Assembly: GCA_049303905.1 (NCBI GenBank)
Contig: JBAQNP010000036.1
Coordinates: 1 to 21,860 of the forward strand
DNA length: 21,860 bases
Reading direction: 5' to 3'
Origin: Candidatus Moraniibacteriota bacterium
Lineage (GTDB): Bacteria; Patescibacteriota; Minisyncoccia; Moranbacterales; UBA2206
The notes beneath the pieces are model-generated. The model saw only the letters and a list, made by a program, of their open reading frames with translations, was not told the DNA's origin and did not search any database. The translations under genes and the position numbers were made by a program. Of the stretch, positions 224-3,859 are shown piece by piece (positions within the stretch are counted from its first letter, which is position 1; every line of letters starts with the position of its first letter).

Positions 224-252
224 TTGACAAAAAAGCTTATGAATGCTAAATT
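224..252 (+). promoter_or_regulatory. sigma70-like promoter candidate: TTGACA (224-229), 17-nt spacer, TAAATT (247-252), upstream of the MVP-like gene. A strong SD (AAAGGAG, 404-410) lies 7 nt before the ATG at 418.
   Basis: Hexamer and spacing pattern read directly from the sequence. A second TTGACAAAAAA copy at about 296-306 has no good -10. Confidence 0.3.
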
Positions 253-417
253 ATTATGATCTCTTGGGTCCTAATCTAGGTAAGGGATTTTGTAACTTGA
301 CAAAAAAATATCTTAAAAATTCAAAAATTGAAAGGAGGTGAGTTAGAGGTAGAGCTATTTTGTTTTTTTTCAAAAAAGTAATATTTCATTCACACACACA
401 AAAAAAGGAGACCGTTC

Positions 418-3372
418 ATGGCTATTGAGATTATAAAAAGACCATTGGGTATTGGCCAATTTGTTTGGTCAATGAGTAAAAAAGACGGAAAATACAAAAT
501 ACTGATCGGACCCGATCCGCTGGAAGCGACGGACGATGACATCTTTTTTATTTCTGATTCGGTAGATCCGAAAAAAATTGTACCCGTTGGCAATCCCGGA
601 GAGGCAATCCAGGATTTTATTACGCTCAAGACAAACGAGTATGCCGTTCTACACAGCCCTTCGGAAACAACCTCGGTCGAATATCCGAATGCCAACTATT
701 CGTCAGGCAAAAATGATATGAAGCCGTTGTTGCGTGGGCAGAAAAGAACGATTACGTCCGGTCACTTTCCGTTGTGGCCTGGGCAGTCGGTTGAGATACG
801 CAAAGTTCATGGTCTTTCGTCGAATCAATATTTAATGGTCGTAGTGGAGTCAAATACGGTTGATGTAAATGCTCCCTATTACGACATCACAATCAAATGT
901 GCCGGCATCAAGAAGGCCGTTGTCGACGAAACCGTTGCAAGTGAAGACAGTGAGAAAATCAAGATCGGTGTCGTAAAAGAAGCCGAGTCTTTGCAATCGG
1001 GAACCAAAGAAGGTGAGACGGATTCAGCTGGATCCCCTGGCGGTAAGGGTAATAATGAAACGAGGAGCGGGGGAAAAGAATCCGTGCCGATGGACATCGT
1101 ACTCAAAGTCGGCCAGAAAATAATCATTCCGGGGAGTCTTACGCCGACATACATCCCTCCCACCGGAATAGAAGTCGTGTCGGAAGGCGAAAATGAAGAA
1201 ACGGCCGAAGATGATCCCCTTACGTTCCCACAGGATTTCATTGAAAAGATGATTGATACAGGAGCTCTCAAAATCGAAAACCTCAAGGGTTTCATGGAAA
1301 AGGCGGGCTTAGATGTAGATTACGCAGACGAAGTTACGAGGTATTACACCAGCTTTCGTCGTGATAATGAAGGGAAGAAAGCTTTGAATCGTGCAATCTC
1401 AGGAGTTGTCACAAATACCGGTTCCAGAGATATATACTCAAAGCTCGCAAAAATATTGGCTGGCAAAGCCAAGAATTCAGGCAAGTCTGACCTCGCAGTA
1501 AGAAAGGCGGTAGTTCTCGGTCCTACCGAATTCTGCGTTCTTTTCGATGAAGACGGAAAACCAAGAACCCACAAGGGTCCCGGCAGAGTATTCCCTGGTC
1601 CGTATGACATTTTCAGAATTGAAGGATCACGTAACCGCATTTATGATGCTTATCACCTGCGCGAAGACAGAGGGCTTCTGCTCAGAGTTGTGGCGGACAA
1701 GATTTCCCGCACAGACTTGATTAAGCAGTTGCCTGAAGGATCTGCAAAGTCGCTGGAAGGTAAGGAAACATACGAGAAAGGCGACGAAATTTTCATCGGT
1801 GGCTTCGACGCATATCTGGTTCCCAGTAATTCCATCGAGGTCATCAATCCCGAAACGCGTCAACCTCACATCGGCAACGATCACTCGGAAGTTTATGTCC
1901 AGTCGATCGGAGTCGACCAGAAAAGTGGCGTTTATGTGGCCAGCGTGGCGACTGGCAACGTGAAGCTGGAAAAGGGAGAGAAGAAACTCCTTCTCGACCC
2001 GCGCAAGGAAAAACACATCAAAAGGCGCATACCGCGTGAGATGTGGAATCTGATTATCGCAAAGGGCGAAGCACATAAGGCAACCGACCAGAGAATGGTT
2101 GAAACGCCGTGGGCACTTTCTGTCATCATCCCCAACAACGAAGCTGCCCTGGTAACAGGCAAGGACAGTCGCAGGGTTGTGGTAGGCCCTCGCACGGAAT
2201 TGCTCGGCTACGAAGAGTGGCTGGAAGTCCTGACCCTTTCCAAAGGAAGACCGAAACTCGAGGAATCAATACTTGAAACATGCTTTTTGAGGGTTACGGG
2301 CAACAGGATAACCGACCAGATCGAGCTCGAAACTTCAGACTTCGTCAGAATAAAGATCGATGTTTGCTACGGCGTGGAGTTCGAGGGTAAAACGCAGGAG
2401 GAAATGGCCAAGTGGTTTAATCACATAAACTACGTCATGCTTCTTTGTAATAATCTGCGCAGTCGTCTCAAGCTGGCGGCCAGAAAGATATCCCTCAAGA
2501 ATCTCTATCCGGACATTCCGGACTTCGTCCGCAACACAATACTCGGCGAAAAGCCGACGAGAGCGGAAGAAGGCAAGGAAACACATCGTCCTGGTCTCAA
2601 ATTCGACGAGAATAATATGCTGGTTAACGAGGTCGAGGTACTGTCTGTAACCATACCTGACAGCGAGATCGCAACTGCAATCGTCGAACAGAATCGCACT
2701 ATTATTAAGGGTGAAATGGAAGTCGCAACATCGAAAGCAAACCTTGAGTCAGCAAAAGCCAAGGATGCAATCGACGAAGAGATTTCCATGATCCAGATCG
2801 AAAAGGCAGATCGCGACAAGGAGACCGGCCTCAAGGTGGCCAAAAGTCAGCACGAGGTCGAAAAAAAGAAGAAAGAGCTGGCGCATCAGATAAATAAGCT
2901 TATACAGGAAAATCAGGCGGCCATCGACAAGGCCATGGAAACGGCTACCAATGTAAAGGCCGAGCTCGTCAGAACGAGAGAGAGTGATGACGCCAAGGCG
3001 ATGATTGCCAGAGATGGCGAGAAGCACAAGAAAATCATCGAATTCCGCACAGCATTGAAAGAGATTCAGATAGCATTGATTGATGCGGAATCCAATGCAG
3101 ATGTTGCTCGCCTCGGCGCAGTCCAGAATGGTCTCATTGAGGCTCTTGAAGGACTGGGTAACAAGGAATTGGCAACGGCGCTGGCGAAGAATCTGCCACA
3201 AGCAACCGGATCACTTGGTTTGCTTCTCGGTCAGGGCGGACTCGACGCAGTACTCAAGATGGTCAAGGGCACAAAGCTCGAAGGTGCTATCAACGCGCTC
3301 AAAGACAGCGCCAAGACCATCGAAAAAACATCCGAACAAATCGGTAAAGCAGCAGGAGAAGACACGCAGTAA
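418..3372 (+). CDS. Major vault protein (MVP) homolog: N-terminal Vault repeats, a ~200-aa divergent low-complexity insertion, an SPFH-like shoulder domain and a C-terminal coiled-coil cap helix.
   Basis: Long ORF with an SD. Hallmark MVP motifs are recognisable by eye: SGHFPLWPGQSVE (compare rat MVP DPFPLYPGEVLE), RRVVVGPRTELLGYEEWLEVLTLSKGRPK (compare [30 protein letters not shown]), EVYVQSIGVDQKSGVYVASV (compare EGIYVQDVKTGKVRAV). A long Ala/Glu/Lys-rich heptad coiled coil spans roughly aa 700-900, followed by a cap-ring-like Gly/Leu segment. GC content and codon usage (CCG, GCC and CGC rich) differ from neighbouring genes. Confidence 0.8.
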   Translation: MAIEIIKRPLGIGQFVWSMSKKDGKYKILIGPDPLEATDDDIFFISDSVDPKKIVPVGNPGEAIQDFITLKTNEYAVLHSPSETTSVEYPNANYSSGKNDMKPLLRGQKRTITSGHFPLWPGQSVEIRKVHGLSSNQYLMVVVESNTVDVNAPYYDITIKCAGIKKAVVDETVASEDSEKIKIGVVKEAESLQSGTKEGETDSAGSPGGKGNNETRSGGKESVPMDIVLKVGQKIIIPGSLTPTYIPPTGIEVVSEGENEETAEDDPLTFPQDFIEKMIDTGALKIENLKGFMEKAGLDVDYADEVTRYYTSFRRDNEGKKALNRAISGVVTNTGSRDIYSKLAKILAGKAKNSGKSDLAVRKAVVLGPTEFCVLFDEDGKPRTHKGPGRVFPGPYDIFRIEGSRNRIYDAYHLREDRGLLLRVVADKISRTDLIKQLPEGSAKSLEGKETYEKGDEIFIGGFDAYLVPSNSIEVINPETRQPHIGNDHSEVYVQSIGVDQKSGVYVASVATGNVKLEKGEKKLLLDPRKEKHIKRRIPREMWNLIIAKGEAHKATDQRMVETPWALSVIIPNNEAALVTGKDSRRVVVGPRTELLGYEEWLEVLTLSKGRPKLEESILETCFLRVTGNRITDQIELETSDFVRIKIDVCYGVEFEGKTQEEMAKWFNHINYVMLLCNNLRSRLKLAARKISLKNLYPDIPDFVRNTILGEKPTRAEEGKETHRPGLKFDENNMLVNEVEVLSVTIPDSEIATAIVEQNRTIIKGEMEVATSKANLESAKAKDAIDEEISMIQIEKADRDKETGLKVAKSQHEVEKKKKELAHQINKLIQENQAAIDKAMETATNVKAELVRTRESDDAKAMIARDGEKHKKIIEFRTALKEIQIALIDAESNADVARLGAVQNGLIEALEGLGNKELATALAKNLPQATGSLGLLLGQGGLDAVLKMVKGTKLEGAINALKDSAKTIEKTSEQIGKAAGEDTQ

Positions 3373-3406
3373 AAAAACACGAAGTCCATATAAAATTTAT
3401 ATGGCA

Positions 3407-3440
3407 AAGGGCGCCCCAATTGTGGACGCCCTTTTATTAT
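3407..3440 (+). terminator. Rho-independent terminator after the MVP gene: stem AAGGGCG/CGCCCTT, 13-nt loop, then TTTTATTATTT. A perfect palindrome CCATATAAAATTTATATGG (3386-3404) lies just upstream of it.
   Basis: Hairpin plus T-run seen directly, 35 nt after the TAA stop. Confidence 0.55.
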
Positions 3441-3477
3441 TTATAATAAATAAAACATTATATTGTTTCATTTTCTA

Positions 3478-3519
3478 AAATGAGACACATGCTGTCCCGT
3501 GTCTCATTTGTCTCATTTA
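3478..3519. repeat. Inverted repeat AAATGAGACAC-N10-GTGTCTCATTT followed by a tandem copy of GTCTCATTT. Possible operator or protein-binding site.
   Basis: Seen directly. The half-site AAATGAGACA also occurs at 190-200, upstream of the MVP gene. Confidence 0.4.
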
Positions 3520-3859
3520 CTTCTCGAAATTGTGACCGATGAGCCTCAAAATCATATTTGGACAAATAGTCAGAAAAGCCTTACAATTCTCTATAGTTAA
3601 AAGTTCTAGACCGATGATGCCCGCAAAATCTAAAAAACAGTTCAATTTATTGAGCTGTTTTTTGTTCTGGCTAACCTTGAACATTTCATCCTTTGATGCT
3701 AGGCTAAAGGCATGAAAATAGAAGTGTTAAGTAATATATTAAGTAACAATGGGTCGCGCCTCAGTTTGTCAATCTTATGCTTCGCGCGAGGTCTGATGAA
3801 AAGAAAAAAGAAGAGTTGAGGAGAATTATTTTTGGTTAAAATGGTGAAACGTAAGAATT

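What the first reader, a model, noticed from the sequence alone, without database searches (positions are those of the whole stretch)
230..3540. MVP gene is a single-gene compositional island with host-like flanks
By eye the ORF is markedly more GC-rich (CCG/GCC/GGC/CGC codons, roughly high-40s % GC) than both flanks and all other genes (low-to-mid 30s %). The promoter-like TTGACA-17-TAAATT, the strong SD and the terminator are all in host-like AT-rich sequence. This pattern suggests relatively recent horizontal acquisition of one ORF from a higher-GC donor. It was then wired into local expression signals.
Basis: seen in the sequence. Interest (0 to 1): 0.6.

Follow-up and report, generated by a model that had tools for sequence, protein, structure and literature searches.

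The report
Laterally acquired vault-protein gene cassette
A gene for a vault-shell protein stands out as a GC-rich single-gene island in an AT-rich, ultra-small (Moranbacteria) genome, and was most likely acquired sideways from a GC-richer relative together with its own promoter and terminator; this is an ordinary kind of event, but it involves an unusual gene.

Summary
ORF 418-3372 (984 aa, a major-vault-protein homologue) has 48.3% GC and GC3 0.53. The 13 other CDSs have 26-43% GC and GC3 0.20-0.39, and both flanks are host-like.

Synonymous codon choice, not amino-acid content, causes about 70% of the excess. Composition-normalised oligonucleotide signatures also differ from the host.

The contig is a Moranbacteria (Patescibacteria) MAG. 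Relatives with gyrB 87-98% identical are in the databases at about 36% GC. The best non-self MVP hit is only 82%. In the five of these lineages whose contigs I retrieved (gyrB 88-98%), none has MVP near gyrB. One (L048) matches the window's right flank starting right after the MVP terminator. Lateral gain is therefore the best reading (about 0.65).

- The donor pool is other Patescibacteria of 43-50% GC, one of them Portnoybacteria-like, not a distant high-GC phylum.
- The promoter, leader and two-hairpin terminator are conserved with MVP loci in unrelated genome contexts. They came with the gene and are not local wiring.

Caveat: MVP genes run GC3-richer than their neighbours in 20 of 25 Patescibacteria loci (median +0.08). 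Part of the signal is therefore a family trait, and the window lies only 1.4 sd above that trend.

The parts
2..160 (+). 3' end of the upstream host gene. It is cut by the contig end and has a weak Hypoth_Ymh-like C-terminus.
   Evidence: The frame-2 ORF ends at TGA 158-160. GC3 is 0.264, which is host-like. Pfam PF09509 scores 22 bits, below its 25-bit cut-off.
177..200 (.). Palindrome copy 1, TGTCTTATTT-CTCA-AAATGAGACA. It is hairpin-forming and terminator-like for the upstream gene, and marks the left edge of the cassette.
   Evidence: (D1). There is only a weak match of 147-208 to the single site of L048 (71% over 62 nt, E=0.07; alignment). The repeat is not significant on its own.
224..252 (+). 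Promoter-like site: TTGACA, 17 nt, (TGC)TAAATT with TG extension. It is conserved with the MVP promoter of L013.
   Evidence: Window 224-264 matches L013 7367-7407 at 80% (33/41).
259..417 (+). Long 5' leader. It has an internal purine-rich GGAGG box (335-339), a CACACACAAAAAAA tract and the GGAG Shine-Dalgarno at 405-408.
   Evidence: Sequence. The proximal leader and Shine-Dalgarno are conserved in L016, L017, L012 and L013. There is no significant secondary structure (z=-0.07).
418..3372 (+). CDS for a major-vault-protein homologue of 984 aa. This is the GC-rich island itself.
   Evidence: Pfam MVP_shoulder 3.1e-20 and Vault_3 at 28.3 bits. The profile matches PDB MVP chains at E=1.3e-34. 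Foldseek top hits are vault cages at E=1e-25.
3384..3405 (+). Conserved 3'-UTR hairpin 1, GTCCATAT-AAAATT-TATATGGC.
   Evidence: Fold. It is conserved, with changes on both sides of the stem, in L016, L017, L012 and L013.
3407..3439 (+). Intrinsic terminator: a GC-rich hairpin AAGGGCGCC...GGACGCCCTT followed by a T-run. It marks the right end of the sequence shared with other MVP loci.
3464..3518 (.). Palindrome copy 2 (3464-3487) and the conserved hairpin 3478-3509/3518. This is host DNA, and homology to the MVP-less relative L048 starts here.
3477..3749 (+). Host non-coding element. It is 86.6% identical to L048/L049 and ends in the bidirectional terminator hairpin 3632-3663. L046 has a tRNA-Asp at this position.
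   Evidence: Rfam found nothing here.
3750..3835 (+). Remnant of a NUDIX gene (last 86 nt only). The gene is intact in L048, L046 and L051, which shows the locus is a zone of insertions and deletions.

Best explanation
A self-contained MVP expression cassette of about 3.25 kb was gained by lateral transfer. It runs from roughly 201/224 to 3441/3463 and holds its own sigma-70-type promoter, a roughly 160-nt leader, the Shine-Dalgarno, the 984-aa ORF and a two-hairpin terminator.

The recipient is an AT-rich Moranbacteria genome of about 36% GC. The source is another Patescibacterium with a moderately higher GC of about 43-50%. The cassette landed in a hypervariable region upstream of gyrB. In relatives that region carries tRNA genes, restriction-modification genes, toxin-antitoxin genes and other variable genes.

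The gene still carries the codon usage of its former background because too little time has passed for it to drift to the host's composition. The protein is a genuine MVP homologue, so by inference it assembles into a vault-like cage.

**Shown:** the composition anomaly, the conserved signals, absence of MVP next to gyrB in relatives, and the right-junction homology.

**Inferred:** the direction of the event (gain rather than loss), the donor group, the insertion mechanism and cage assembly.
For: 1. GC3 is 0.53 against 0.20-0.39, and about 70% of the GC excess is synonymous. Delta* and tetranucleotide signatures lie 4 and 10 sd from size-matched host samples.
2. ENC is 53.7 against 60.4 expected from GC3. 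The deficit is no larger than in ordinary genes, and L25 and MreB show no C3 enrichment. There is thus no sign of translational selection.
3. Host-clade composition has been stable across relatives at 4-fold distances of 0.39-0.71. A long-resident gene should by now have drifted to the host's composition.
4. MVP genes in other AT-rich hosts have drifted to host composition (L043, L033, L039 and L007, with dGC3 no more than +0.04). GC-rich codons are therefore not required for function.
5. gyrB has relatives at 98, 94, 94, 92, 88 and 87% identity, but the best non-self MVP hit is 82% and the window's own MVP cluster has a single member.
6. No MVP lies within the sequence recovered around gyrB in L044-L053.
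7. Window 3477-3749 matches L048 3516-3789 at 86.6%, beginning immediately after the MVP terminator. L048 has one copy of the palindrome that occurs on both sides of MVP in the window.
8. MVP sits at a different place in L012, where the order is 23S-5S-h274-FtsW-h310-MVP-rpoB. L012 is Portnoybacteria-like by rpoB, yet its MVP is 75% identical to the window's while FtsW is 39% identical.
9. The window MVP's codon usage is closer to the L012 host pool (1.22) than to its own host (1.83).
10. Both flanks are host-like, including the left partial ORF.
Against: - MVP is GC3-richer than its neighbours in 20 of 25 non-redundant Patescibacteria loci (median +0.083, Wilcoxon p=7e-5). The regression slope is 0.93, so some gene-intrinsic factor exists, and the window lies only 1.4 sd above that trend.
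- No donor is close. The best is 82% aa and 79% nt, with a 4-fold-site distance of about 0.7.
- The island contains no integrase, transposase or other mobility gene.
- The flanking repeat is not statistically significant by itself; 34 of 300 shuffles scored as well.
- The left junction shows only weak homology to the empty site (E=0.07).
- Absence from relatives is inferred from protein-database hits and contigs of 7-22 kb, not from complete genomes. The closest relative (L044/L045, gyrB 98%) has less than 1 kb recovered upstream of gyrB, so MVP at the window's position is not excluded there.
- MVP lies 417 nt from a contig end.
Confidence: 0.65

Rival explanations
1. MVP is ancestral in this lineage. 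Its GC-rich synonymous sites are kept by a gene-specific force, such as selection on codon usage or mRNA properties in a very abundant shell protein, or biased gene conversion. The close relatives lost the gene.
For: There is a family-wide positive GC3 offset (20 of 25 loci, slope 0.93, intercept +0.12). In L013 and L011 the MVP GC3 (0.69, 0.72) exceeds the GC3 of every Patescibacteria host background sampled here, which is hard to explain by donors alone. The enrichment is strongest for C-ending two-fold codons: TTC, ATC, GAC and CAC. Branch-specific synonymous changes on the window lineage imply an equilibrium GC3 of about 0.54, equal to the observed value, although saturation biases this test.
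Against: ENC shows no extra bias. L25, MreB and gyrB of the same genome, and rpoB/rpoC of L012, do not share the shift. MVPs in several AT-rich hosts have host-like GC3. This reading needs several independent losses in relatives with gyrB 87-98%. CAG (0.78) and AAG (0.56) preferences are not what selection in an AT-rich host with few tRNAs would predict; that last point is my inference.
Confidence: 0.22
2. Assembly or binning artefact. The first 3.4 kb would come from a different, GC-richer population and would have been joined to the Moranbacteria contig at a short shared repeat.
For: MVP lies at the extreme end of the contig, 417 nt from the edge. The window is the whole 21,860-nt contig. 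A repeated palindromic motif sits exactly at the junction, at 3464-3518.
Against: The DNA to the left of MVP is host-like again. The partial ORF has GC3 0.264 (P=1e-4 against 0.53), the non-coding stretch 161-417 has 29% GC, and it carries the same host palindrome. A chimera would need two junctions that bracket exactly one complete promoter-to-terminator unit.
Confidence: 0.06
3. This is a refinement of the gain hypothesis. The cassette was inserted by site-specific or palindrome-mediated recombination at the host hairpin TGTCTyATTT-N4-AAATGAGACA next to a tRNA-type locus, which duplicated the target. A phage or other mobile element may have delivered it.
For: All four exact copies of AAATGAGACA in 21.9 kb flank MVP. 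With up to one mismatch there are 8 matches against 2.9 expected, and 1 of 100 shuffles reached that. The 47-nt direct repeat 162-208 / 3449-3495 brackets the cassette. L048 has a single copy of the site. L046 has a tRNA-Asp at the equivalent place. MVP-like genes occur in huge phages at 30-32% identity and on two IMG/VR contigs at 52-54%.
Against: The two copies are only about 70-79% identical, which fits poorly with a recent duplication. The repeat's local score is reached in 11% of shuffles. No recombinase is in or next to the cassette. The motif is absent from other MVP loci. The 'viral' contigs are 195-424 kb, the Pfam scan of genes flanking MVP on one of them found no typical phage structural or replication genes, and they may be cellular.
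Confidence: 0.15

Closest known systems
Major vault protein (eukaryotic vault shell; Pfam MVP_shoulder PF11978 and Vault repeat families; PDB 4V60, 4HL8, 9BW5)
   Same: It has the shoulder domain (E=3e-20) and N-terminal beta-repeat domains. The model has a cap helix of about 158 residues. The profile matches rat and human MVP residues 265-800 at E=1e-34. Full-length Foldseek hits reach E=1e-25.
   Different: Sequence identity to solved vaults is 15-17%. It carries a disordered insert (166-225) and an all-helical insert (271-354) that did not align to solved MVP. The profile match to solved MVP covers only about residues 353-896 of the protein. No TEP1, PARP4 or vault-RNA partners are encoded nearby. 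Cage assembly is untested.
Bacterial MVP homologues of Myxococcales, Cytophagales and Oscillatoriales (bioRxiv 10.1101/872010; Daly et al. 2013, PMC3762200) and phage MVPs (bioRxiv 10.1101/2023.11.10.566534)
   Same: It belongs to the same protein family. Polyangium and Polyangiales proteins are the next-closest group, at 33-40% identity. Patchy distribution and lateral transfer have already been proposed for the family.
   Different: This one belongs to a large Patescibacteria clade, with 80 or more clusters at 43-82% identity. I did not find that clade mentioned in the searchable literature. It travels with a conserved promoter, leader and terminator.
Classical compositional genomic islets (laterally acquired genes detected by atypical GC3 and codon usage; the gradual-drift 'amelioration' model of Lawrence and Ochman, cited from my own knowledge)
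   Same: It shows atypical GC3, codon usage and oligonucleotide signature. It is absent from close relatives. It lies in a variable, tRNA-associated region.
   Different: It is a single gene with no mobility gene. The donor is within the same superphylum and only 8-15 GC points richer. The compositional signal is confounded by a family-wide GC3 offset.

Membership tests
Major vault protein family | MVP shoulder domain (PF11978) | tested here: met
   E=3.1e-20, 72.8 bits against a cut-off of 25, residues 629-747. pLDDT is above 90 in the model.
Major vault protein family | Tandem vault beta-repeat domains N-terminal to the shoulder | tested here: inconclusive
   Vault_3 scores 28.3 bits, just under its 28.8 cut-off. 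The profile aligns to MVP residues 265-646. The model shows beta-repeat modules, but residues 365-415 and 497-533 have low confidence.
Major vault protein family | Long cap-helix (coiled coil) after the shoulder | tested here: met
   The model has a continuous helix at 749-906. It aligns to the MVP cap helix up to residue 800.
Major vault protein family | Assembly into a closed, many-fold symmetric cage | not testable with these tools
   This needs expression and electron microscopy.
Horizontally acquired genomic islet | Composition and codon usage atypical for the host genome | tested here: met
   The host sample is only the 13 other CDSs of this contig plus relatives' loci.
Horizontally acquired genomic islet | Absent from close relatives; an empty site exists | tested here: met
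   There is no MVP above 82% identity although gyrB relatives reach 87-98%. No MVP lies within the sequence recovered around gyrB in five relative lineages. The right flank is homologous to L048. The limits are that only contigs were seen, not complete genomes, that the closest relative's contig starts less than 1 kb upstream of gyrB, and that the left junction is weak.
Horizontally acquired genomic islet | Gene phylogeny incongruent with organism phylogeny | tested here: inconclusive
   The MVP is 75% identical to that of a Portnoybacteria-like organism whose FtsW is 39% identical and whose 23S 3' segments are 75-92% identical. No proper tree reconciliation was done.
Horizontally acquired genomic islet | Mobility machinery or flanking direct repeats | tested here: inconclusive
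   There is no integrase or transposase. A flanking 47-nt repeat and palindrome is present but is not significant alone.
Codon bias of a highly expressed gene (translational selection) | Codon bias stronger than expected from GC3, and shared by other highly expressed genes | tested here: not met
   The ENC deficit is -6.7, within the range of ordinary genes (+2.9 to -9.0 in the window). L25 has GC3 0.25, MreB 0.30, and rpoB/rpoC of L012 sit at background. No ribosomal-protein operon or EF-Tu gene was available.

The most novel reading that the evidence does not exclude
MVP cassettes, each with its own promoter, leader, ORF and two-hairpin terminator and sometimes a partner gene, would form a mobile module. 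That module would circulate among ultra-small Patescibacteria and possibly huge phages, repeatedly appearing as GC-rich islets. It would build vault-like cages in cells only a few vault-lengths across. This would be a prokaryotic vault system whose spread and function are undescribed.
Probability: 0.3. Interest if true: 0.6.

Novelty: new member of a known kind. Interest (0 to 1): 0.38.

Why it matters
As a lateral-transfer event it is routine. Its value lies in what the check uncovered.

- **A large, unreported MVP clade.** MVP homologues are widespread in Patescibacteria, which I did not find reported in the searchable literature. They come with conserved regulatory flanks and, in other genomes, with two conserved partner genes. 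One is an acidic protein of about 310-360 aa, the other an R2K ATP-grasp enzyme.
- **A route to studying vaults.** This gives a tractable, minimal prokaryotic setting for asking what vault cages do. It also adds data to the debate on whether vaults spread between domains by lateral transfer.
- **A methodological caution.** A family-wide GC3 offset can mimic or inflate a lateral-transfer signal. Composition alone would have overstated the case here.

Tried and rejected
- **Exact-protein contig look-up for the window MVP:** not on record.
- **Flanking direct repeat as proof of insertion:** the local score of 12.0 was reached in 34 of 300 dinucleotide shuffles, so it is only suggestive.
- **Parsimony polarisation of synonymous changes (window, L016 | L012, L017):** the implied equilibrium GC3 equals each lineage's present GC3. 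4-fold sites are 55% identical or less, so saturation makes the test weak. I did not rely on it.
- **'Recent AT shift of the host' as an alternative:** rejected, because relatives out to a 4-fold distance of 0.71 have the same GC and gyrB GC3.
- **Amino-acid composition as the cause:** rejected, because it explains only 3.3 of 11.6 GC points.
- **Structured 5' leader or riboswitch:** no Rfam hit and fold z=-0.07.
- **Rfam identity for the conserved non-coding element at 3464-3668:** none found. A two-sequence alignment gives no useful covariation.
- **Phage or plasmid vehicle:**
  - There are no plasmid hits.
  - GenBank phages give only 30-32% matches, in huge phages.
  - The two IMG/VR hits lie on 195-424 kb contigs, and a Pfam scan of genes flanking MVP on one of them showed no typical phage genes.
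- **Palindrome motif near other MVP loci:** absent, so it belongs to the host site and not to the cassette.
- **L043 (71% best segment) as a resident, host-adapted orthologue in a close host:** rejected. It belongs to the short-type MVP subclade that has the ATP-grasp partner.
- **Taxon names for the nearest MVP carriers from cluster look-up:** none available.

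
Full report
**What is there.** The window is a complete 21,860-nt contig of a 'Candidatus Moraniibacteriota' MAG; NCBI's name for the identical protein gives the taxon. The gene order is:
- a partial Ymh-like ORF
- MVP
- an AstE/AspA-like gene
- NUDIX
- h131
- gyrB
- an MscS-like gene
- the 23S rRNA, interrupted by a LAGLIDADG ORF
- the 5S rRNA
- h268
- FtsW/RodA
- L25
- SLT
- a MurA-like gene
- MreB
- GT4

ORF 418-3372 encodes a 984-aa major-vault-protein homologue:
- Pfam gives MVP_shoulder at 3e-20 and Vault_3 just under its cut-off.
- A profile of 34 homologues matches solved rat and human MVP at E=1.3e-34.
- An AlphaFold model has mean pLDDT 68.8, with the shoulder above 90 and a cap helix at 749-906. 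Its top Foldseek hits are vault cages at E=1e-25.

**Observation check.** The ORF has GC 0.483 and GC3 0.530. The other 13 CDSs have GC 0.26-0.43 and GC3 0.20-0.39, and the flanks have GC 0.29-0.36.
- The partial ORF to the left has GC3 0.264, so host-like DNA lies on both sides.
- With the host's codon usage the MVP amino-acid sequence would give GC 0.400 and GC3 0.30. About 70% of the excess is therefore synonymous.
- The codon-usage distance to the host pool is 1.83, against 0.61-1.17 for host genes.
- Karlin delta* is 133 against 61±17, and the composition-normalised tetranucleotide correlation is 0.40 against 0.79±0.04.

**Is it selection on a highly expressed gene?** ENC is 53.7 against 60.4 expected from GC3. 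That deficit is no larger than in ordinary genes of this and related loci. L25 (GC3 0.25), MreB (0.30) and the rpoB/rpoC of L012 show no such shift. The codon dialect is not a uniform GC shift: CTC, ATC, GTC, GAC, CAC, CAG and AAG go up, while GTG, GCG, GGG, CGA and CGG go down. It resembles the MVP genes of L016 and L012 (distances 0.71-0.76) and the L012 host pool (1.22) more than its own host.

**Family context.** Homologues at 43-82% identity are numerous, and wherever they are named they are Patescibacteria, apart from one MAG labelled Nanoarchaeia. Polyangia follow at 33-40%.

I collected 40 loci. Across 25 non-redundant Patescibacteria loci:
- MVP GC3 tracks the neighbours' GC3 (slope 0.93, r=0.77) with a positive offset. 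The median is +0.083, 20 of 25 are positive, and Wilcoxon p=7e-5.
- The window's +0.22 is the second largest. It lies 1.4 sd above the trend.
- Several AT-rich hosts carry MVPs that match their host's composition (L043, L033, L039, L007). GC-rich codons are therefore not a functional requirement.
- In L011 and L035, MVP sits in multi-gene GC-rich patches.

Part of the signal is thus a family trait of unknown cause, and part is specific to this genome.

**Host relatives.** gyrB finds relatives at 98, 94, 94, 92, 88 and 87% aa identity.
- Their loci have 35-37% GC and gyrB GC3 0.34-0.38, at 4-fold-site distances of 0.39-0.71 from the window. The host clade has therefore been AT-rich for a long time.
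- The best non-self MVP in 5.8 billion clusters is only 82% identical, and the window's MVP cluster has a single member.
- The five lineages whose contigs I retrieved (gyrB 88-98%) show no MVP in the sequence recovered around gyrB. That sequence reaches up to 10 kb but only about 0.9 kb upstream in the closest relative.
- The region upstream of h123-gyrB differs in every one of them. It variously holds tRNA-Met ×2, tRNA-Asp, LAGLIDADG, RhuM, MazE and type I restriction-modification genes.
- A gene resident since the clade's ancestor should have drifted to the host's composition. A single gain is more parsimonious than several losses.

**Junctions.**
- Window 3477-3749 is 86.6% identical to L048/L049 3516-3789. 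Window 3750-3835 is the last 86 nt of a NUDIX gene that is intact in L048, L046 and L051.
- Homology to the MVP-less relative therefore starts 25-40 nt after the MVP terminator.
- That point is a palindrome, TGTTTCATTT-TCTA-AAATGAGACA (3464-3487). A second copy lies at 177-200, just left of the MVP promoter. L048 has one copy.
- All four exact AAATGAGACA copies in the window flank MVP.
- The repeat alone is not significant (34 of 300 shuffles). The left-flank match to L048 is weak (E=0.07). I treat target duplication as suggestive only.

**Expression signals are not local.**
- The promoter TTGACA-17-TGCTAAATT plus the following ATCTCT is 33/41 identical to the MVP promoter of L013. L013's MVP is 66% identical and has different neighbours.
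- The proximal leader (C-R-C-A-rich tract, then AGGAG, then ATG) is shared with L016, L017, L012 and L013.
- The 3' UTR with two hairpins is shared across five loci, with changes on both sides of the stems.
- The unit that is conserved, and presumably moved, runs from promoter to terminator.

**Nearest carriers.**
- L016: 82% aa, 79% nt; its neighbouring gene has GC 53%.
- L012: 75% aa; background GC 44.5%.
- L017: 74% aa; background GC 42.7%.

Their MVPs are barely GC3-enriched over their own backgrounds.

L012 shares the 23S(intron)-5S-h268-FtsW arrangement with the window but has MVP elsewhere, between h310 and rpoB. Its FtsW is 39% identical to the window's. Its rpoB is closest to named Portnoybacteria, at 86%. 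The window MVP keeps the composition typical of this MVP subclade while sitting in an atypically AT-rich host.

A rough drift estimate (my own calculation, model-dependent) runs as follows. Residence for about 0.35 substitutions per 4-fold site under the host's mutational bias would lower GC3 from about 0.57 to about 0.45. The observed 0.53 fits a shorter residence.

**Verdict.** The finding is a real single-gene compositional island. It is most likely (about 0.65) a laterally gained, self-contained MVP cassette from a moderately GC-richer Patescibacterium.
- The main rival (about 0.22) is an ancestral gene with a gene-specific GC3-raising force, plus losses in the relatives.
- A chimeric assembly is unlikely (about 0.06) because host-like DNA resumes on the far side.

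In kind this is an ordinary lateral-transfer islet. The unusual aspects are the gene itself and the size of its Patescibacteria clade.

Noticed in passing
window 9397-~13621 (ORF 12712-13158): The 23S rRNA is interrupted near its 3' end by an insertion that carries a LAGLIDADG homing-endonuclease ORF (Pfam 2.8e-8). By blastn to L012, 23S segments resume at about 13300-13621, although Rfam ended its match at 12577. L012 has an equivalent insertion with an ORF. No 16S gene precedes the 23S, so the rRNA genes are unlinked. The 23S also has extra segments (for example about 10110-10283) that are absent in relative L051.
   Followed up: partly
window 3464-3668; L048 3502-3708; L046 1078-1190: This non-coding element is 86.6% identical to relatives, which is more conserved than gyrB at the nucleotide level. 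It has a hairpin at 3478-3509 and a bidirectional terminator at 3632-3663. In L046 the same slot and terminator hold a tRNA-Asp. There is no Rfam or ARAGORN hit. It may be an unassigned small RNA or a decayed tRNA locus.
   Followed up: partly
window 3750-3835: Only the last 86 nt of a NUDIX gene remain. The gene is intact in L048, L046 and L051, so about 495 nt have been deleted in the window. The AstE/AspA-like gene that follows (3860-4675, GC 29%) is absent from those relatives at this locus. The region is a hotspot of insertions and deletions.
   Followed up: partly
L017 1555-2643; L012 5410-6342; L021 8766-9848; L002 2365-3441; L030/L031: An acidic protein of about 310-362 aa with no Pfam domain lies directly upstream of long-type MVP genes in at least five Patescibacteria loci. 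It tends to share MVP's elevated GC3. It is absent from the window. It may be a functional partner or cargo.
   Followed up: partly
L054 9119-9850; L032 9218-9976; L033; L043 2465-3196: An ATP-grasp enzyme of about 245 aa (Pfam R2K_2 at 7e-29, R2K_3) lies directly upstream of the short-type MVP (845-880 aa) in four loci. Two of these are contigs that IMG/VR lists as viral (195 and 424 kb).
   Followed up: partly
protein search: MVP homologues form a large Patescibacteria clade of 80 or more 90%-identity clusters at 43-82% identity. One hit is labelled Nanoarchaeia. I found no mention of CPR or Patescibacteria MVPs in the searchable literature. Huge phages LR756500-LR756503 encode 30-32% identical homologues.
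   Followed up: partly
window 418-3372, residues 166-225 and 271-354: Compared with solved vault proteins, this MVP has a disordered Gly/Ser/Glu-rich insert and an all-helical insert of about 85 residues between beta-repeat modules. The region before residue 353 did not align to PDB MVP sequences.
   Followed up: no
window 2-160: The cut-off upstream ORF has a C-terminus weakly similar to Hypoth_Ymh (PF09509, 22 bits, below the cut-off). I recall from my own knowledge that this family is often found in defence and restriction-modification contexts, which would fit the restriction-modification, RhuM and MazE genes in the same region of relatives.
   Followed up: no
L011 8982-12898; L035 3145-11688: In two other Patescibacteria loci, MVP is part of a multi-gene GC-rich patch. 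In L011 it pairs with a divergent 218-aa gene of GC3 0.78. In L035 it is followed by about six genes of GC3 0.63-0.82. These may be larger islands that carry MVP.
   Followed up: no
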